Shown: positions 45,380 through 51,656, counted from the first letter of the stretch. The stretch: DNA of 64,000 bases from Leptolyngbyaceae cyanobacterium M33_DOE_097 (GCA_015296075.1 DVDV01000099.1:26446-90445); one strand, 5' to 3'. A program made the numbers and translations. The notes: generated by a model not told the origin, from the sequence alone.

Positions 45380-47144
45380 ATGGATCCTGTGTCTAATGAA
45401 CGTTTTACTCTGTCGCTTTCTGCCAATGAAATCGAGGCTCTCAGGCAAGAAGTAATTGAACTCAGACAAAAAAATGCCGATTTAGAAACCCAATTGGCAG
45501 CACTGCGACCCGAAATCCGGCAACCCACTGCGACACCACCACTACCCGATAGCGCGGCTACACTCAATTCAACGGTACAAGTACCGTCTGATTTTTTACA
45601 ACAAATTACGGATAACATTCCCCTGGCCATTTTTTGGCAAGACTGTCAGGGTGTATATTTGGGCTGCAATCAACTAGGAGCCGCGATCGCCGGGTGTCAA
45701 TCAGCCGCTGAGATTGTAGGTAAAACCGACGCAGACTTAGCGTTTTCGCGCAAGCAGATTGAGCTGTTTAATGACTTAAATCGACAGGTGTTAATCACCG
45801 GGGTGCCGCTCCATCATGCGGTGCATACCCTCGTACAACCTGACGGGCAGCAGATCTGGCTGGATGTGACAAAAGCGCCGTTGCAAAATTCAGACGGGCA
45901 AATCATTAGCATCCTAACCGCTTATGAGGAAGTGACCGAGCGTTTGATGTCACAGGTTGCGTTGCAAGACCAGTGGCAATTTTTACACCAATTGATCGAC
46001 AGTTCCCCCGACCTGATCATGGTGCAAGACTGGAGCGGACAAGTCACGCTGGCAAACCGTTCACTTGCCAGGTTTTTGGGAGCCGAGATGAAAGACCTGT
46101 TGGGGTATGGCGCTAAAAGCTTTTTTCCTGCTGGAGCATGGGAACGATTTACTGACGAAAACCAGGAAGTTATTATCTCTGGCGAAGATTTGCAGTCGCC
46201 TGAAGAAATTTGGGCGAATGCGCAGGGTAAAAGTCGCTGGCTTTGCTGGACGAAACGCGTCTTACCCCTGCCGGGTAGCGAAGAGTTGGGTGTACTCGCG
46301 ATCGCGGTTGACGTGACCAACCAGATCCAAGCAAATGCAGCCATTCGTGAGTTGAACGAGCGACTCAAAGCCGAGAATCTGCGCATGGGGGCCGAGTTAG
46401 AAGTGACGCGTCGCCTGCAACAAATGATCTTGCCCCGCGAAGAAGAGTTGGCGCAGATCACCGAGTTGGACATCGCAGGGTTTATGGAGCCTGCCACCGA
46501 GGTGGGAGGTGATTACTACGATGTGGTCTTACAGCCCAATGGCAAGGTGAGCATTGGTATTGGAGATGTGACAGGGCATGGTTTAGAAAGTGGCATGGTG
46601 ATGCTGATGGCTCAAACGGCTCTACGCACGTTACTCGCTACGAATGAAGCCGACCCGGTGAAGCGGTTAGATGTACTCAACCAAATTCTGTATACGAATT
46701 CGCGCCGCATGCAGTCAGGCAAAAGTATGACGCTGACCTTATTAGAGTACGAGGCTGGCAAGATTCGTCTGAGCGGTCAACACGAAGAGTTGATCCTGCT
46801 GCGGTTAGATGGGCAGATTGAGGTGATTGACACCTTTGACCTCGGTTTTCCCTTGGGGATTGAGTCAACGATCGCCCCCTACGTTCAGCAAATCGAAACG
46901 CCGCTTTTACCAGGTGAAGTGGCAGTGCTTTATACCGATGGGGTGACTGAAGCGATGAACGTAAACAATGAAATCTACGGAGTGACTCGGCTCCACAATG
47001 TGTTGAGGGCAAATCGGCATCGTTCTGCGCTAGAGATCCCGTCAAGCGGTTGTGACAGACATTCGCACCTACATCGCTGATCAAGAAATATTTGACGACA
47101 TTACGTTGGTTGTTATTAAACAAAAAAATAAAAATGCCTCGTAA
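45380..47144 (+). CDS. Coiled-coil/PAS/PAS-PP2C (SpoIIE/RsbU-type) Ser/Thr phosphatase. Reading frame broken by a 1-nt frameshift at about 47038-47040
   Basis: GGDYYDV, IGDVTGHG and LYTDGVTEA PP2C motifs. The track ORF stops at 47080. The +1 frame from 47037 encodes SRQAVVTDIRTYIADQEIFDDITLVVIKQKNKNAS and stops at 47142-47144, which is the expected PP2C C-terminus. Confidence 0.85.
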
Positions 47145-47752
47145 AGGATGAATGTTTCAAGAACCTTTCCGGGTTTAGATTTTCACCAAAGGTAAAGTAT
47201 TACGTGTTTACCGATACGTGTATAACGACAGTCAGGTGTCTTAAGTCATTGGGGATAGCGAGGATGTGACACTGCTCTCCTAGCCAGGGTTTCACTCCTG
47301 CACCTTGACTTAACCAGGATGACTTGGCTATGTCCAGCAGTTATGTGGATGGCAAAAAATGTGGATTGAAACAACCTAAAACGAGTTCAACACGATACTG
47401 AATTGATGAGATACAAACAGTTCGATAATTTTTAAACTGTTAAAAAACGGATGAGATCATGGCTATGAAGGGTTACTGACCCAGTACTCCTAGAGACATC
47501 AGTGGTGGCTTGGCTCGCATTGCATTTTTTCTACATAGAGTTCATCACCTTCATGAACCTCAATGTGAGTCAAAAATATTGTTCAATCAACCTATCGTGA
47601 CAGCATAGCCTGGGGCGCAATTCGCAACCTGATGGTGCGATGGCTGCTTTTCTGCTGACTATCCGCAATTCTCTTATTTCATAATCTCGTTCGACTGTTT
47701 ACTATAGATTGATTATTCCCTGTATAAGAGCAATAAGGCGTGCTCACAAACT

Positions 47753-49555
47753 GTGTCACAGCAAAACGAAAAAGAACTGATTCAACAGATCGCAGCGCTG
47801 CAACAAGAAATTGCTCACTTGCAGCGAGCCAATACTGACCTGCAACTTACGCTAGAAACCGCTGTCGAACATGGTGATGTGATTGAGGCTGAGTTACAAC
47901 AGGTCAATGCACGCTTGAAAACAGAAGTCGCCGAGCGACGGACTGCTCAGTCAACCTTGCAAGCCATTTTAGAAACGGTTAGCCGTGATAAATCTGATCT
48001 TGAAACGATTCTAAATCTCACGGTTGAGCATGGCGATACAGTTGAGTATCACCTTTACAAGCGGGCGGTTGAGGTAATGCGCCACAGTGAGGATTTGTTT
48101 CGCGCGATCGCGGAGTCGAGTCCGGTGGCGATGCTCATCAGCGAGACTCCAGTAGGGGTGATCCGCTATGCCAATGCCGCTGCTGCTGCGCTTTTAGAAG
48201 TGACCGAAAAAGATCTGATTGGGCAGCCATTAAGCACCTTTTACCACAGTCAGACCAGTCTGCAGCAAGTGCAGGCGCAATTAAGTCAGAATGGCTATCT
48301 AGAACAGTTTGAGATTGAAGGTGTAACCGCCAACCAAGAAAAGTTTTGGGCGATCGCCTCCGCCCACACGGTCATGCTGCAAAGCACACCCTCTTGGTTA
48401 ACCACCTTTTATGACATCAGCGATCGCAAGCGTATCGAAGAGGCGTTGCGGCAATCAGAGGCAAAACTGCAAGAGCAGGCCCGTCTCTTAAGAGGCATGG
48501 TCGAGTACCGCGAAGAGCAGTTGCGCCAATCAGAGGAGAAGTACCGCAGCATTTTTGAAAATGCCGTTGAGGGGATCTACCAGACCTCTCCAAACGGACG
48601 GTTTATTAATGCGAATCCGGCTTTAGCTCAGATTTATGGGTATGACTCCCCAGCGGAGTTAATGCGGGCAATTTCCGATTTAAGCAAACAACTCTACGTG
48701 CAACCGAGTCGTCGGGCAGAGTTGACTGTTTTTGTGAACCAGTTTGAGTCGGCTTCTGATATGGAGTCGCAAGTCTATCGCAAGGACGGCAGCACGATTT
48801 GGATCTCTGAAAGTATTCGAGTCGCGAAGGATGAGGCTGGCAACATCCTGTATTACGAAGGAGCCGTACGTGATGTTACCGAACACAAAAAAATGGAGGC
48901 TGAGCTACGTCAGCAACGCCTGACATCTGAACGGCTATTGCTCAATGTTTTGCCCCAAAAAGTTGCAGAACGGCTCAAACGGGGAACTCATAAGATTGCA
49001 GATCATTTCAATAAAGCAACCGTTCTCTTTGCCGACATTGTGAATTTTACGGAGCTAGCCGATACGGTTTCACCCACCGAGCTAGTAGATGTTTTAAATG
49101 AAATTTTCTCTTCGTTCGATTCCCTGGTTGATCGCTACAGCCTAGAAAAGATCAAGACGATTGGTGATGCTTATATGGTCGTGGGTGGTTTACCCCAGCC
49201 AACCCCAATTCATGTTGAGGCGATCGCTGATCTGGCTTTAGGGATGCAACAAGAAATTCGCCGCTTTCGACGACACGACGGGCAACCGTTCGCTCTTCGC
49301 ATTGGCATTCACACAGGTCCAGTAATTGCCGGGGTGATTGGGCTGAGAAAATTTGCCTATGATTTATGGGGAGATACCGTCAACGTCGCTAGCCGGATGG
49401 AAACTCATGGCGAACCTGGCAAGATTCAAGTGACTGAGGCTGTCTATAAACGCTTGAAACAAACCTATGAATTTGAGTCACGCGGCTCAGTCGTTGTCAA
49501 AGGTAAAGGCGAGATGAGTACCTACTGGCTAGTAGGCAAACGTCCCACTTTTTAA
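47753..49555 (+). CDS. Class III adenylate cyclase with two N-terminal HGD repeats and two PAS domains
   Basis: FADIVNFT, EKIKTIGDAYMVVGG (adenine-specifying Lys) and WGDTVNVASRME motifs. GTG start. Confidence 0.9.
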   Translation: MSQQNEKELIQQIAALQQEIAHLQRANTDLQLTLETAVEHGDVIEAELQQVNARLKTEVAERRTAQSTLQAILETVSRDKSDLETILNLTVEHGDTVEYHLYKRAVEVMRHSEDLFRAIAESSPVAMLISETPVGVIRYANAAAAALLEVTEKDLIGQPLSTFYHSQTSLQQVQAQLSQNGYLEQFEIEGVTANQEKFWAIASAHTVMLQSTPSWLTTFYDISDRKRIEEALRQSEAKLQEQARLLRGMVEYREEQLRQSEEKYRSIFENAVEGIYQTSPNGRFINANPALAQIYGYDSPAELMRAISDLSKQLYVQPSRRAELTVFVNQFESASDMESQVYRKDGSTIWISESIRVAKDEAGNILYYEGAVRDVTEHKKMEAELRQQRLTSERLLLNVLPQKVAERLKRGTHKIADHFNKATVLFADIVNFTELADTVSPTELVDVLNEIFSSFDSLVDRYSLEKIKTIGDAYMVVGGLPQPTPIHVEAIADLALGMQQEIRRFRRHDGQPFALRIGIHTGPVIAGVIGLRKFAYDLWGDTVNVASRMETHGEPGKIQVTEAVYKRLKQTYEFESRGSVVVKGKGEMSTYWLVGKRPTF

Positions 49556-49612
49556 GGGGAGCGATTTGAGGTTCGTGATAAACCTTTCTGCTGCTGGAGA
49601 AATAAAGACCCT

Positions 49613-50188
49613 ATGATCCAAACCTTTGGTGAGTTTATTGATCAAATGCCTCATACAGAGGAGTATCTGACTATCAGTTTCTCACCCAGCTCAAATGCTC
49701 GTAACTTACGCTGGAGCAACTATGGATTGTCGGCTGATTTTTTAGGTGATTATTTTGCCACGTTTTTTCCAGGTAGCCCTGAGCAAAAGCCGGAGCTTGA
49801 TAAACAAGACGTTGTAAAGTCTTCAGTCAGCTACATTGCGAATGAGCTATTGGAGAATGCTATTCAGCACAGTGACCTCAATTCGGAAATACCGATTCAT
49901 ATTTCGCTCTATCTGTATAACACTCGCTTAGTTTTTGTTGTTTCTAACGCGGCAACTACTTTGAAAGTTGAAAAATACAAGGAATTTATTCACCAATTAC
50001 TCAGTTCAGACGTTAACGAACTCTACACAACCCAGCTCGAAAAAACGGCTATGGGCCGGGGTGGGTCTCACATGGGACTGCTCACCATGATGAATGACTA
50101 CTCGGCCCGGTTTGGTTGGAAGTTTGAGCCGTTAGCGGCTCATCAAGAAGCTGTAAACGTCACGGTGATGGCACAACTAGATGTTTAA
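49613..50188 (+). CDS. GHKL-like protein, SiaB/RsbW-type switch kinase candidate
   Basis: 191 aa. ANELLENAIQH (N-box-like) and GRGGSHMGLLTMM (G-box-like). Positioned directly upstream of a SiaC-like gene. Confidence 0.6.
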   Translation: MIQTFGEFIDQMPHTEEYLTISFSPSSNARNLRWSNYGLSADFLGDYFATFFPGSPEQKPELDKQDVVKSSVSYIANELLENAIQHSDLNSEIPIHISLYLYNTRLVFVVSNAATTLKVEKYKEFIHQLLSSDVNELYTTQLEKTAMGRGGSHMGLLTMMNDYSARFGWKFEPLAAHQEAVNVTVMAQLDV

Positions 50189-50284
50189 AGAGTGACGATG
50201 GTATCCTGACGAAGATGTGCAACCAACCATAAAGCCCTTGCTTTAGTAAAAGCTTGTTAATTTTGATAGAGGAATCACTACTAG

Positions 50285-50626
50285 ATGGAGATCAAGACAA
50301 AAGATTACAGTGTCTGGTATGAACCTAATGAAGCGACGGTTTTCTTCAAAGGTTTTTTGCGTCTTGACGGCATGGAAGCTTACCAGCCAATCATCAATCT
50401 CTTAAATTCAGCTTCAGATGGTAGTGATGCTGTGACCCTTGATTTACAAGAGCTAGAGTTTTTAAATAGCTCTGGGATCAGTATGTTGTCGATGTTTGTG
50501 GTGGCGCTTCGCAACAAGGGTAGTGTCAATTTGATTCTAAAAGGGTCAAATAAGGTTTTGTGGCAAACCAAATCTTTGAGAAACTTGCAACGACTCATGC
50601 CAAGCATTGTCTTGGAATTGTGTTAA
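50285..50626 (+). CDS. SiaC/DUF1987-like (STAS-like) small regulatory protein
   Basis: 113 aa. TVFFKGFLRLDG..AYQPIINLL...VTLDLQELEFLNSSGISML pattern recalled for DUF1987/SiaC. Confidence 0.6.
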   Translation: MEIKTKDYSVWYEPNEATVFFKGFLRLDGMEAYQPIINLLNSASDGSDAVTLDLQELEFLNSSGISMLSMFVVALRNKGSVNLILKGSNKVLWQTKSLRNLQRLMPSIVLELC

Positions 50627-50630
50627 ACCC

Positions 50631-51656
50631 GTGGGCATAAACGTGGAACAGCTAAAGTACGCTAAAGAACAACTCATTACTGAGATTGAGTTGCTGCGTC
50701 GGCAAGTTGAACGACTAGAGCAAGAAAACCATGACTTACAAATTGCTTTAGAGACAACAGCGATTCATGGTGATTTAGTCGAATCAGAGTTGTATACCGT
50801 TAATCAAAAACTACAATCGGCGATCGCAAGCTATCAACAAAAGCAGACGATTCTTGAGTCTGTTTTGGAAAGTGTGGCGCAACAAAAGACCGATTTAGAA
50901 ATTATTTTGCATACCATGACTGAGCATGGCGACTCGGTTGAAACAGAGCTTTTTAACTTGAATCAGCGGCTTGAAGCAGAGATGCTTGAGCGCAAGAAAA
51001 CAGAAAATAAGTTGCACTCTCTAGTGAGAATTATTTCTAAAGAAAAAGATGATTTAGAAAAGATTATGCGGACGATCATTGAGCATGGAGATGCGATCGA
51101 AACGCAGTGGTATGGCAAGTTATTAGAAGCCGATCAGCTAGCTTTAATTGATGGCTTAACCCAGGTCGCCAATCGGCGTCACTTAGACAACTACCTCGCC
51201 TCTGAATGGCGACGGTTGACGCGTGAACAGCAGCCATTAGCGCTGATCTTGTGCGATGTTGATAATTTCAAGCTCTACAACGATACCTATGGCCACCAGT
51301 TGGGTGATGACTGCTTAAAACAGGTCGCTCGCGCGATCGCTTGCTCCGTCAATCGTCCGTCTGATCTGGTCGCCCGCTATGGTGGGGAAGAGTTTGCGGT
51401 CATCTTGCCCAATACCCCAATTGAAGGGGCGGTGTGTGTGGCTGAGCGCATTCGAGCCGCAATTGAGGCGTTACAAATCCTGCACGAGCGATCGCCTGTG
51501 CGCCCTCACGTCACCCTCAGTTTAGGCGTGGCAGCTTTGGTTCCTGCTGAAGCGCTGTCGCTCAAACAATTGATTGCGTTGGCTGATGATGCCCTCTACG
51601 AGGCAAAGCAAGCAGGTAAAAATCACATTCAGGTGGCGATCTCAGATGCCAACTAA
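50631..51656 (+). CDS. Diguanylate cyclase (GGDEF) with three N-terminal HGD repeats
   Basis: DGLTQVANRRHLD, RYGGEEFAV (GGEEF), and RPSD I-site 5 residues upstream. The track opens at TTG 50607; GTG 50631 lies 4 nt after the upstream stop. Confidence 0.9.
   Translation: MGINVEQLKYAKEQLITEIELLRRQVERLEQENHDLQIALETTAIHGDLVESELYTVNQKLQSAIASYQQKQTILESVLESVAQQKTDLEIILHTMTEHGDSVETELFNLNQRLEAEMLERKKTENKLHSLVRIISKEKDDLEKIMRTIIEHGDAIETQWYGKLLEADQLALIDGLTQVANRRHLDNYLASEWRRLTREQQPLALILCDVDNFKLYNDTYGHQLGDDCLKQVARAIACSVNRPSDLVARYGGEEFAVILPNTPIEGAVCVAERIRAAIEALQILHERSPVRPHVTLSLGVAALVPAEALSLKQLIALADDALYEAKQAGKNHIQVAISDAN

What the first reader, a model, noticed from the sequence alone, without database searches (positions are those of the whole stretch)
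47831..51116. Unnamed 53-residue HGD repeat shared by the adenylate cyclase (2 copies) and the diguanylate cyclase (3 copies)
In the cyclase, HGD occurs at residues 40-42 and 93-95 (nt about 47831-48067): DLQLTLETAVEHGDVIEAELQQVNARL and DLETILNLTVEHGDTVEYHL. In the GGDEF protein (numbered from 50607), HGD occurs at residues 54-56, 107-109 and 160-162 (nt about 50733-51116): DLQIALETTAIHGDLVESELYTVNQKL, DLEIILHTMTEHGDSVETELFNLNQRL and DLEKIMRTIIEHGDAIETQWY. The spacing is exactly 53 residues in both proteins. The consensus is DL(E/Q)xxLxTxxEHGDxxExEL followed by a coiled-coil-like stretch. I do not recognise this as a named domain. The invariant His-Gly-Asp between two helices might be a metal/ligand site or the docking surface for the neighbouring SiaC-like protein (inference).
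Basis: seen in the sequence. Interest (0 to 1): 0.65.

Follow-up and report, generated by a model that had tools for sequence, protein, structure and literature searches.

The report
Repeated partner-docking motif on cyclase stalks
The HGD repeat is real and has no name in Pfam or NCBIfam; it is a motif spaced in heptad register along a coiled-coil stalk, and it most likely lets one small SiaC-like switch protein dock onto, and jointly control, a cAMP cyclase and a c-di-GMP cyclase.

Summary
There are five 53-residue units, two in the adenylate cyclase and three in the GGDEF protein. An HMM built only from other organisms scores each unit at 51-60 bits.

No Pfam, NCBIfam or PDB sequence covers the repeat. 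It defines a family of at least 315 clusters at 50% identity. Members are mostly cyanobacteria, with sulfur-oxidising Gammaproteobacteria and other phyla. The repeat always sits N-terminal to a dimeric output domain: GGDEF, class III cyclase, HisKA or PAS.

AlphaFold models it as one continuous helix, not a hairpin. Inter-motif spacings obey 25+7n in 172 of 178 cases. The last motif lies whole heptads from the GGDEF DxLT motif or from the HisKA His.

About 80% of family members sit next to an slr1659-type gene, and about 80% of slr1659-type genes sit next to a family member. The slr1659-type model's best PDB matches are all SiaC. An slr1658-type kinase and a PP2C phosphatase usually accompany them.

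In Pseudomonas SiaD, the two SiaC-binding stalk motifs are 32 (25+7) residues apart. The proximal one lies 21 residues before DxLT, exactly as here.

Best reading: the repeat is the docking site for the SiaC-like partner-switch protein. Direct binding is inferred, not shown. It is a new variant of a known kind.

The parts
45380..47144 (+). PAS-PAS-PP2C (SpoIIE-type) phosphatase, the SiaA-like input of the module. The reading frame is broken near 47036-47052.
   Evidence: Pfam SpoIIE 1.1e-30 plus two PAS domains. The C-terminal 'RQAVVTDIRTYIADQEIFDDITLVVIKQ' continues in another frame, as shown by comparison with the L126 orthologue. A PP2C gene lies within 4 kb of 24 of 46 HGD genes in other genomes.
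47753..49555 (+). Adenylate/guanylate cyclase: HGD stalk (2 units), two PAS domains, class III cyclase domain.
   Evidence: Pfam Guanylate_cyc 3.3e-68 over residues 418-594; PAS at residues 115-210 and 273-377. Nothing significant covers residues 1-114.
47792..47950 (+). Cyclase HGD unit 1 (aa 14-66; HGD at nt 47870-47878).
   Evidence: Independent HMM 58.1 bits.
47951..48109 (+). Cyclase HGD unit 2 (aa 67-119; HGD at nt 48029-48037). It runs directly into PAS ('EHGDTVEYHLYKRAVEVMRHSEDLFRAI').
   Evidence: Independent HMM 60.1 bits. The same junction is conserved in many family members.
49613..50188 (+). slr1658-family protein, a GHKL/SiaB-like putative Ser kinase of the partner switch.
   Evidence: NCBIfam NF052618 246.8 bits (cut-off 200). 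Weak matches to HATPase_c, DUF6272 and SiaB. Fused to HGD-GGDEF proteins in 7 of 150 family representatives.
50285..50626 (+). slr1659-superfamily protein, a SiaC/STAS-like partner-switch protein with an invariant LEFLNSSGI loop (Ser62/Ser63).
   Evidence: NCBIfam NF047705 153 bits (cut-off 100). AlphaFold pLDDT 92.5. The top 8 PDB matches are all SiaC, TM 0.70-0.73. The loop is invariant or nearly invariant (at least 78 of 80 sequences at each position from F59 to I65).
50607..51656 (+). Diguanylate cyclase: HGD stalk (3 units) then GGDEF. The probable true start is GTG 50634.
   Evidence: Pfam GGDEF 2.3e-54 over residues 179-340. AlphaFold pLDDT 89, helix 14-159 and helix 161-179 leading into GGDEF.
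50688..50846 (+). GGDEF-protein HGD unit 1 (HGD at nt 50766-50774).
   Evidence: 59.6 bits.
50847..51005 (+). GGDEF-protein HGD unit 2 (HGD at nt 50925-50933).
   Evidence: 59.7 bits.
51006..51164 (+). GGDEF-protein HGD unit 3 (HGD at nt 51084-51092). Gly161 lies 21 residues before Asp182 of the GGDEF 'DGLT'.
   Evidence: 51.4 bits. The 21-residue distance is shared with 71 of 97 family DGCs and with SiaD S82.

Best explanation
The HGD repeat is a portable docking motif on an N-terminal, parallel, dimeric coiled-coil stalk.

Anatomy. The core is about 20 residues: D-L-E-h-x-L-x-T-x-x-E-H-[G/S/A]-D-x-[I/V]-E-x-x-L. In this window a 28-residue (four-heptad) spacer follows, N-x-x-L-x-x-E-I-x-E-R-..., giving the 53-residue period. 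Each period is a whole number of heptads plus 4 residues (one hendecad). Successive motifs therefore face the same way on the stalk and stay in register with the dimeric output domain.

Register, by analogy with SiaD (inferred). The small residue (G/S/A) sits in the core 'a' position and opens a notch. That notch is flanked by the invariant His (g), Asp (b) and Glu (e).

Mechanism (inferred). The neighbouring slr1659-type SiaC-like protein inserts its invariant N-S-S-G-I loop into the notch. It binds as pairs at each motif and stabilises the active parallel dimer. The slr1658-type kinase phosphorylates the loop Ser and blocks binding. The PAS-PP2C phosphatase reverses this.

Consequence. Both the cAMP cyclase (2 sites) and the c-di-GMP cyclase (3 sites) carry the motif, so one phospho-switch would control both second messengers.

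Shown: the repeat, its family, the register rules, the gene linkage, and the SiaC-like fold of the partner.
Inferred: direct binding, stoichiometry, the sign of regulation, and phosphorylation of Ser62.
For: 1. A real, specific family. A profile of the unit finds 315 representative clusters at E<=1e-3, of which 114 are at E<=1e-10, among 1.84 billion proteins. In 128 members the outputs are GGDEF 58, HisKA 22, Guanylate_cyc 12 and PAS 39.

2. Coiled-coil register.
- 172 of 178 inter-motif spacings equal 25+7n (25, 32, 39, 46, 53, 60, 74).
- The distance from the small residue to the GGDEF DxLT Asp is 21, 14 or 35 in 94 of 97 cases.
- The distance to the HisKA His is 23+7n in 15 of 17 cases.
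- The distance to a directly attached cyclase is 52 (6 cases) or 59 (1 case).
- AlphaFold gives one continuous helix over residues 14-159.
- Hydrophobic columns follow a 3/4 pattern, with G/S/A occupying a core slot.

3. Conserved exposed polar residues: D-11, T-4, E-1, H0, D+2 and E+5 at 0.86-1.0 frequency. This argues for a binding surface.

4. Gene linkage.
- 35 of 46 HGD genes with at least 1.5 kb of flank on both sides have an slr1659-type gene within 1 kb, 34 of them on the same strand. 33 have an slr1658-type gene within 2.5 kb.
- Conversely, 36 of 45 slr1659-type loci with at least 3 kb of flank have an HGD gene within 3 kb.
- 7 of 150 representatives are HGD-GGDEF-slr1658 fusions.

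5. The partner is SiaC-like. The eight best PDB matches are all SiaC, and the loop N61-S62-S63-G64-I65 parallels SiaC N67-T68-S69-x-I71.

6. The SiaD precedent. Its two SiaC-binding stalk motifs (S50/Q54 and S82/Q86) are 32 = 25+7 residues apart. S82 lies 21 residues before DxLT in an ungapped alignment with the window stalk. That alignment puts H-G-D-A-I-E on I-S-D-R-Y-Q.

7. Subfamily co-variation. slr1659 class 'NSSGIS..M' pairs with H-G-D stalks in 46 of 48 cases, and class 'NSSGIN..K' pairs mostly with H-S-D.
Against: - No complex was modelled or measured, so direct binding is inferred.
- The HGD unit HMM gives SiaD's stalk only about 1 bit, and the window stalk finds no SiaD by phmmer. 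The relation to the SiaD motif is positional, not demonstrable sequence homology.
- About 20% of HGD genes with adequate flanks lack an adjacent slr1659-type gene, and about 20% of slr1659-type loci lack an HGD gene.
- The co-variation is confounded by co-inheritance of operons.
- The AlphaFold model is a monomer, so the parallel dimer is assumed from the heptad rule, from the known dimeric catalysis of GGDEF and class III cyclases (established knowledge), and from SiaD.
- The invariant His has no counterpart in SiaD (Ile81) and remains unexplained. It could point to a different ligand or to binding of the phosphorylated form.
Confidence: 0.6

Rival explanations
1. The motif is a metal- or small-ligand-binding site. 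In the parallel dimer each layer offers two His, two Asp and two Glu around a small core residue. This would make the stalk itself a sensor, for example of Fe, Zn or pH. The partner switch would then act elsewhere or additionally.
For: His and Asp are invariant and Glu+5 is 91% conserved. The small core residue leaves a cavity. These proteins have no other N-terminal sensor domain. Disruption of the family prototype slr1658 in Synechocystis impairs recovery from iron limitation (PMC7555055, citing Zer et al. 2018).
Against: No similarity to any known metal-binding domain was found in Pfam, NCBIfam or the PDB. This reading does not explain the tight adjacency to slr1659 or the match to the SiaD docking geometry. 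SiaD works with Ile, Ser and Gln at the equivalent positions.
Confidence: 0.13
2. It is only a structural dimerisation or signal-transmission coiled coil, of the S-helix or stalk kind, with a conserved stutter and no specific partner. Linkage to slr1658/slr1659 would then reflect regulation through another surface.
For: The helix is continuous. Register with the output domains is heptad-quantised. The spacer 'L..EI.ER...E..L' recalls the signalling helix (recalled from memory, not tested).
Against: Strong conservation of exposed polar residues and of the exact motif across GGDEF, cyclase and HisKA contexts is more than a structural coil needs. The stalk is N-terminal, with nothing upstream to transmit a signal from. 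In 25-residue arrays only the core motif is repeated, without the spacer (P0083).
Confidence: 0.12
3. The invariant His is a phospho-acceptor. The slr1658-type GHKL protein would phosphorylate the stalk His, making this a split histidine kinase.
For: slr1658 proteins have a weak HATPase_c match. His followed by an acidic residue in a dimeric helix loosely recalls H-boxes. HGD-GGDEF-slr1658 fusions exist.
Against: The stalk has no HisKA or DHp match. A single continuous helix, not a hairpin four-helix bundle, is predicted. There are up to 5-6 repeated His residues per chain. slr1659 carries the canonical STAS/SiaC Ser loop, which is the expected substrate.
Confidence: 0.05
4. It is a helical-hairpin repeat domain, with HGD as the turn, folding into a compact sensor domain.
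For: Gly-Asp could break a helix. AlphaFold shows a one-residue break at the third HGD (residue 160). Free SiaD is reported to adopt a compact inactive N-terminal conformation.
Against: The first two HGD motifs lie inside a continuous helix; the second (residues 107-109) sits in a stretch with pLDDT above 90, while pLDDT around the first (residues 54-56) is only about 65-70. Gly is often Ser or Ala. The 25+7n rule and the fixed heptad distance to the output domains fit a continuous coil.
Confidence: 0.05

Closest known systems
SiaC-binding motifs on the stalk of Pseudomonas aeruginosa SiaD (SiaABCD system; PDB 7E6G; PMC8457831)
   Same: - It is a repeated motif on an N-terminal parallel coiled-coil stalk of a GGDEF cyclase.
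- The SiaD motifs are 32 = 25+7 residues apart.
- The proximal small core residue (S82) lies 21 residues before DxLT, as Gly161 does here.
- The pattern small-D-x-hydrophobic-Q/E is shared.
- The operon contains a PP2C phosphatase, a small GHKL-type kinase and a SiaC-fold protein.
   Different: - There is no detectable sequence similarity between the motifs.
- SiaD has no counterpart of the invariant His, nor of the conserved upstream T-x-x-E segment of the HGD motif; both motifs carry a Leu-Glu pair, but 4 residues nearer the small core residue in SiaD.
- The typical period here is 53 residues, and copy number ranges from 1 to at least 5.
- The motif also occurs on class III cyclases, histidine kinases and PAS proteins.
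- The kinase and switch proteins belong to separate families (slr1658 and slr1659) and score below the SiaB, SiaC and SiaD cut-offs.
Classical STAS partner switches (SpoIIAA/SpoIIAB/SpoIIE; RsbV/RsbW/RsbU)
   Same: Same logic of a PP2C phosphatase, a GHKL Ser kinase and a STAS-like protein with a phospho-Ser at the start of helix 2. 'LNSSGI' here aligns with 'MDSSGL' of SpoIIAA.
   Different: The output is not sigma-factor release. It is (inferred) docking on the stalks of nucleotide cyclases and kinases. The slr1659 model is closer to SiaC (TM 0.70-0.73) than to RsbV or SpoIIAA (TM 0.55-0.66).
Regulatory coiled-coil stalks of other diguanylate cyclases (WspR, PleD, DgcR, PadC, DgcB)
   Same: A helix runs directly into the GGDEF domain, and its register sets the geometry of the catalytic dimer. 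The DGC model superposes on these structures.
   Different: Those stalks follow an in-cis sensor or receiver domain and carry no repeated conserved polar motif. Here nothing precedes the stalk.
Signalling helix (S-helix) between sensor and output domains (recalled from memory; Anantharaman, Balaji and Aravind 2006)
   Same: The spacer N-x-x-L-x-x-E-I-x-E-R-x-x-x-E-x-x-L resembles the E-R-T-centred parallel coiled-coil linker, and it contains the stutter.
   Different: The HGD core motif is not part of the S-helix, and it recurs without the spacer in 25-residue arrays. The resemblance was not tested with a model.

Membership tests
Any curated domain or repeat model (Pfam-A 2025, NCBIfam 20.0) | A model matches residues 1-114 of the cyclase or 1-178 of the GGDEF protein above its cut-off. 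| tested here: not met
   Only sub-threshold coiled-coil noise matches there (SYCE1, YabA and the like, E>0.004, all below cut-off). Scanning 128 family members adds no stalk family.
SiaD equivalog (NF038266) | Whole-protein score at or above the curated cut-off of 290 bits. | tested here: not met
   150.8 bits. The alignment covers residues 83-340, including part of the stalk.
SiaD-type stalk with repeated SiaC-binding motifs | At least two similar motifs on a helix N-terminal to GGDEF, spaced by whole heptads plus 4, with the proximal core small residue 21 residues before DxLT. | tested here: met
   Spacing is 53 = 25+28. Gly161 to Asp182 is 21 residues. In SiaD the spacing is 32 and S82 to the DxLT Asp is 21, in an ungapped alignment.
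SiaD-type stalk with repeated SiaC-binding motifs | Sequence similarity of the motif to SiaD 'RLEKVARISDRYQQM'. | tested here: not met
   The unit HMM scores the SiaD stalk at about 1 bit. phmmer with the window stalk finds no SiaD.
SiaD-type stalk with repeated SiaC-binding motifs | Direct binding of the SiaC-like protein to the motif, with resulting activation. | not testable with these tools
   No multimer prediction or experiment was available.
SiaC / DUF1987 (PF09345), for the neighbour at 50285-50626 | Pfam score at or above 24.5 bits. | tested here: not met
   13.3 bits, E 0.068. It meets NF047705 (slr1659 superfamily) instead, at 153 bits against a cut-off of 100.
SiaC / DUF1987 (PF09345), for the neighbour at 50285-50626 | SiaC-like fold, with the phospho-acceptor at the N-terminus of helix 2. 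| tested here: met
   AlphaFold pLDDT 92.5. Foldseek ranks 1-8 are all SiaC chains, TM 0.70-0.73. The NSSGI loop at residues 61-65 precedes helix 63-78.
SiaB-family kinase (NF038262), for the neighbour at 49613-50188 | Score at or above 85 bits. | tested here: not met
   16.7 bits. It belongs to NF052618 (slr1658 family), at 246.8 bits against a cut-off of 200.
HisKA / DHp phospho-acceptor helix | An H-box match within a helical-hairpin dimerisation domain. | tested here: not met
   No HisKA-type hit on the stalk. A single continuous helix is predicted.
Signalling helix (S-helix) | A roughly 40-residue parallel coiled coil with a central E-R-T signature between two signalling domains. | not tested
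   No S-helix model surfaced in the library scans. The resemblance of the spacer 'EIxER' is recalled from memory only.
Class III nucleotidyl cyclase and GGDEF diguanylate cyclase (the host proteins) | Catalytic-domain match above the cut-off. | tested here: met
   PF00211 229 bits. PF00990 184 bits, with GGEEF and the RxxD I-site present.

The most novel reading that the evidence does not exclude
The H-[G/S/A]-D stalk repeat is a general, portable address tag. Any dimeric signalling enzyme that acquires it (GGDEF, class III cyclase, histidine kinase) comes under control of a single slr1658/slr1659/PP2C phospho-switch. The number of heptad-phased copies (1 to at least 5) would set the stoichiometry and cooperativity of activation. 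In this operon one switch would co-regulate cAMP and c-di-GMP synthesis. That would be a previously unrecognised, widespread cyanobacterial and proteobacterial signalling architecture. It would also give a mechanism for the unexplained Slr1658 regulatory phenotype in Synechocystis.
Probability: 0.45. Interest if true: 0.8.

Novelty: new variant of a known kind. Interest (0 to 1): 0.65.

Why it matters
SiaC-type activation of a cyclase through its stalk is so far known from a single Pseudomonas protein. The motif found here would extend that principle in three ways:
- to hundreds of protein clusters across cyanobacteria and several other phyla;
- to cAMP cyclases and histidine kinases as well as diguanylate cyclases;
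- to operons in which one switch addresses two second-messenger synthases.

It also yields a simple sequence rule that can be used to annotate these proteins: the motif itself, the 25+7n spacing, and the fixed heptad distance to the output domain.

It gives concrete residues to mutate: His, the small residue, Asp and Glu on the stalk, and Ser62/Ser63 on the slr1659-type protein.

Finally, it offers a testable mechanism for the slr1658/slr1659 family. The family prototype has a published regulatory phenotype (recovery from iron limitation, Pgr5 over-expression) but no known mode of action.

Tried and rejected
- The word-indexed homologue search gave little. The 178-aa stalk returned 3 hits, and the 53-column profile returned four 75-aa proteins. 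The exhaustive profile search was needed.
- My first genome-wide DNA pattern was mistyped (wrong run lengths of N) and found nothing. A corrected single-unit pattern worked.
- PDB sequence searches with the stalk alone found only coiled-coil noise or the start of the GGDEF domain. slr1659 alone found nothing, and its profile gave only weak STAS hits.
- Mutual information between the slr1659 loop and the stalk motif exceeds shuffles for many column pairs. I treat this as subfamily co-inheritance, not as proof of contact.
- Rfam and the promoter/terminator scans of 44-53 kb and 47-51.9 kb showed nothing relevant.
- Literature searches for slr1658/slr1659, DUF6272, SiaB/SiaC with cyanobacteria, and partner-switching with cyclases found no description of the repeat.
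- The hairpin-repeat reading and the phospho-His reading were considered and judged unlikely (see the rival explanations).

Full report
**1. The observation**

The window carries five genes on the + strand:
- a PAS-PAS-PP2C phosphatase (45380-47080, continuing to 47144 in another frame);
- a 600-aa PAS-PAS class III cyclase (47753-49555);
- an slr1658-family protein (49613-50188);
- an slr1659-superfamily protein (50285-50626);
- a 349-aa GGDEF protein (50607-51656).

Domain assignments come from Pfam and NCBIfam. Gaps between the last four genes are 57 nt, 96 nt and an overlap, so they look like one operon.

The units share 21-38% identity at protein level and 33-50% at DNA level, so they are ancient. 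The motif pattern occurs 3 times in the window against 0 expected. An HMM built from 412 units of other organisms scores each window unit at 51-60 bits and finds nothing else in the six-frame translation except a leader-only partial match in the phosphatase N-terminus.

**2. Is it a named domain?**

No Pfam-A or NCBIfam model covers the stalks. No PDB sequence matches them. Five full-text searches found no description of the repeat. Within the libraries available here it is unnamed.

**3. The family**

A profile of the 53-residue unit was searched exhaustively against 1.84 billion representative proteins. It found 315 clusters at E<=1e-3, 114 at E<=1e-10 and 11 at E<=1e-30.

In 128 of the best hits the repeat is N-terminal to GGDEF (58), PAS (39), HisKA/HATPase (22), receiver domains (14) or class III cyclase (12). 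Nothing precedes it.

The hosts are mostly cyanobacteria: Microcoleus, Pseudanabaena, Thermosynechococcaceae, Leptolyngbyaceae, Pleurocapsales. There are also Gammaproteobacteria (Thioalkalivibrio, Ectothiorhodospiraceae, Thiomargarita, Beggiatoa-like), Sulfuriferula, Rhodocyclaceae, Rhodospirillum, and MAGs of Myxococcales, Chloroflexia, Bryobacteraceae, Actinomycetota and Clostridia.

Across the family His and Asp are invariant, while the middle residue is Gly, Ser or Ala.

**4. What kind of structure**

AlphaFold2 was run on the GGDEF protein with 44 aligned sequences (pLDDT 89). It predicts one continuous helix over residues 14-159, a one-residue break at His160, and a helix over 161-179 that runs into GGDEF. 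There is no hairpin.

The decisive evidence is arithmetic.
- Of 178 inter-motif spacings in 269 proteins, 172 equal 25+7n: 53 (107 cases), 25 (25), 60 (16), 32 (10), 46 (7), 39 (6) and 74 (1).
- The distance from the small residue of the last motif to the Asp of the GGDEF 'DxLT' is 21 (71 cases), 14 (13) or 35 (10).
- The distance to the HisKA phospho-His is 23, 30, 44, 51 or 65 in 15 of 17 cases.
- The distance to the metal-binding Asp of a directly attached cyclase is 52 (6 cases) or 59 (1 case).

Each period is therefore whole heptads plus four residues (one hendecad). That corresponds to an integral, odd number of helical turns: 25 residues in 7 turns, 53 in 15. Successive motifs face the same way on a coiled coil and keep register with the dimeric output.

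Column statistics show hydrophobic positions at -10, -6, (-3/-2), +4, +8, +15, +19, +29, +33, +36 and +43 relative to His. The G/S/A residue at +1 occupies a core slot, and the stutter lies between +15 and +19.

The minimal unit is the 25-residue core, as in P0083: 'EKDELELLLKTTTEHADEIAEELAN' repeated five times. The window's extra 28 residues are a spacer, 'NxxLxxEIxER...'.

Several exposed polar residues are conserved at 0.86-1.0 frequency: D-11, T-4, E-1, H0, D+2 and E+5. This points to a binding surface.

**5. Genomic company**

In the genome loci, 35 of 46 HGD genes with at least 1.5 kb of flank on both sides have an slr1659-type gene within 1 kb (34 on the same strand). 33 have an slr1658-type gene within 2.5 kb, and 24 have a PP2C gene within 4 kb. 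The eight chance-match loci have none of these.

The converse was tested from 80 metagenomic slr1659-type loci. Of 45 with at least 3 kb of flank, 36 have an HGD gene within 3 kb.

The dual arrangement [PP2C][HGD-GGDEF][slr1658][slr1659][HGD-cyclase] recurs often: L127, L130, L132, L135, L141, L146, L147, L086, L115, L123. The window and its close relative L126 have the two cyclases in swapped order.

Seven of the 150 best representatives are natural HGD-GGDEF-slr1658 fusions. Independent look-ups gave the same picture: P0057 has DGC, a 190-aa gene, a 114-aa gene and SpoIIE in a row, and P0010 is flanked by STAS and DUF6272 genes.

**6. The partner protein**

The slr1659 family has at least 1163 clusters at 90% identity, named at best 'STAS domain-containing', 'anti-anti-sigma factor' or 'slr1659 superfamily regulator'. 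Its loop L-E-F-L-N-S-S-G-I is invariant or nearly so: L57, S62 and G64 are identical in all 80 sequences, F59 to I65 in at least 78, and E58 in 62.

By sequence the family is only weakly STAS-like. 'LNSSGI' aligns with SpoIIAA 'MDSSGL', which carries the phospho-Ser. It scores below the Pfam SiaC cut-off.

Its AlphaFold model (pLDDT 92.5) finds SiaC as ranks 1-8 in the whole PDB, with TM 0.70-0.73, ahead of RsbV and SpoIIAA-type proteins at TM 0.55-0.66.

**7. Comparison with SiaD**

The following comes from the eLife 2021 structure paper (PMC8457831). Two SiaD chains form a parallel coiled-coil stalk. Four SiaC molecules bind two conserved stalk motifs. SiaC T68 inserts between the helices and hydrogen-bonds S82 and Q86 (S50 and Q54 in the distal motif). 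Phosphorylation of T68 blocks binding. The two motifs are 32 residues apart, which is 25+7.

I recovered the SiaD stalk sequence from the PDB...VRLERIARISDGFQSM...RRLEKVARISDRYQQMMRDLNLALKEASIRDPLTGLPNRR. In an ungapped alignment, S82 lies 21 residues before the DxLT Asp. This is exactly the position of Gly161 relative to Asp182 here, and the same as in 71 of 97 family DGCs. The full-length family profile likewise begins its SiaD alignment at E-H-G-D against R-I-S-D.

This register maps H-G-D-A-I-E onto I81-S82-D83-R84-Y85-Q86. The small residue then falls on the core residue that receives SiaC T68, the invariant Asp on D83 and the conserved Glu on Q86. The slr1659 loop N-S-S-G-I parallels SiaC N67-T68-S69-x-I71.

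There is nevertheless no detectable sequence similarity between the motifs, and the invariant His has no SiaD counterpart. The window proteins also fall below the SiaA, SiaB, SiaC and SiaD equivalog cut-offs. The system works like SiaABCD but is not a member of those families.

**8. Mechanism proposed**

Shown:
- a heptad-phased, N-terminal stalk motif in register with dimeric outputs;
- tight linkage to an slr1658 / slr1659 / PP2C module;
- a SiaC-like fold for the slr1659-type protein.

Inferred:
- unphosphorylated slr1659 docks pairwise at each motif and stabilises the active parallel dimer of both the cAMP cyclase (2 sites) and the c-di-GMP cyclase (3 sites);
- slr1658 phosphorylates Ser62 (or Ser63), and the conserved Asp and Glu then repel the loop;
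- the PAS-PP2C phosphatase resets the switch in response to its own signal.

The sign of regulation is not established. The invariant His could instead favour the phosphorylated form.

One weak supporting point is that slr1659 subclass co-varies with the small residue: 'NSSGIS..M' goes with H-G-D in 46 of 48 cases, and 'NSSGIN..K' goes mostly with H-S-D. This is confounded by shared ancestry.

**9. Rivals**

A metal or ligand site formed by His, Asp and Glu is not excluded. It is mildly encouraged by the iron-limitation phenotype of the Synechocystis slr1658 mutant, and it could coexist with docking. A purely structural coil, a phospho-His relay and a hairpin repeat are each less consistent with the data (see the rival explanations).

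**10. Verdict**

The finding is real and was well described. It is best read as a new, widespread variant of the SiaD-type stalk docking motif, extended to adenylate cyclases and histidine kinases. Confidence by claim:
- coiled-coil register: about 0.85;
- functional coupling to the slr1658/slr1659 switch: about 0.85;
- direct docking of slr1659 on the motif: about 0.6;
- the unphosphorylated form being the activator: about 0.45.

Noticed in passing
window 47030-47144: The PP2C phosphatase gene is broken by an apparent 1-nt frameshift. The ORF ends '...ALEIPSSGCDRHSHLHR*' at 47080, while the conserved C-terminus 'RQAVVTDIRTYIADQEIFDDITLVVIKQKNKNAS' continues in another frame to 47144. The intact L126 orthologue reads '...AAEIRQAVIADVYQHIGEQRIFDDLTLVVIKQRA'. 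This is either a sequencing error or a pseudogenised input phosphatase.
   Followed up: partly
window 45434-45496 (phosphatase aa ~19-39): The phosphatase N-terminus ('ALRQEVIELRQKNADLETQLA') matches the first 21 columns of the HGD unit HMM (14 bits, E 1e-3) but lacks the T..EH.D half. It looks like a leader-like coiled coil without the docking core.
   Followed up: no
window 50607-50640: The TTG start at 50607 overlaps the end of the slr1659-type gene. A GTG at 50634 gives an N-terminus that aligns with the orthologues P0008 and P0009 and places HGD at residues 45, 98 and 151, as in those proteins. The annotated start is probably 9 codons too early.
   Followed up: partly
window 47145-47752: There is a 600-nt gap with no ORF between the phosphatase and the cyclase. 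It has no Rfam match and no convincing promoter or terminator consensus on the + strand.
   Followed up: partly
P0011, P0068, P0072, P0086, P0093, P0117, P0154 (family representatives); L026 and L107: Natural single-chain fusions of HGD stalk, GGDEF and an slr1658-type kinase domain, in cyanobacteria and Gammaproteobacteria.
   Followed up: partly
P0004-P0007 (75 aa) and many 65-150-aa representatives such as P0020, P0124 and P0128: Very short proteins that consist of little more than one or two HGD units. Some are probably gene fragments from short contigs. P0004-P0007 look complete and could be stand-alone decoy or adaptor stalks.
   Followed up: no
L007, L031, L037, L071, L073, L105, L108, L185, L189, L192, L193, L197, L205: A recurrent Microcoleus-type pair: an slr1659-type gene immediately upstream of a ~725-aa protein with a single H-S-D motif, and no slr1658-type kinase within the locus. 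These genomes also carry a separate full module with a cyclase (for example L025 and L105 from one strain). This suggests paralogous cognate pairs.
   Followed up: no
L194 7883-8884; L198 5635-6651: ORFs that match both the slr1658-type and the slr1659-type HMMs, possibly kinase-substrate fusions. They lie next to a second, unfused slr1658/slr1659 pair and a PP2C gene.
   Followed up: no
L159, L160, L162, L167, L171, L172, L191: slr1658/slr1659(/PP2C) modules with at least 3 kb of flank on both sides but no HGD-repeat gene within 3 kb. These switches may use a different target or act in trans.
   Followed up: no
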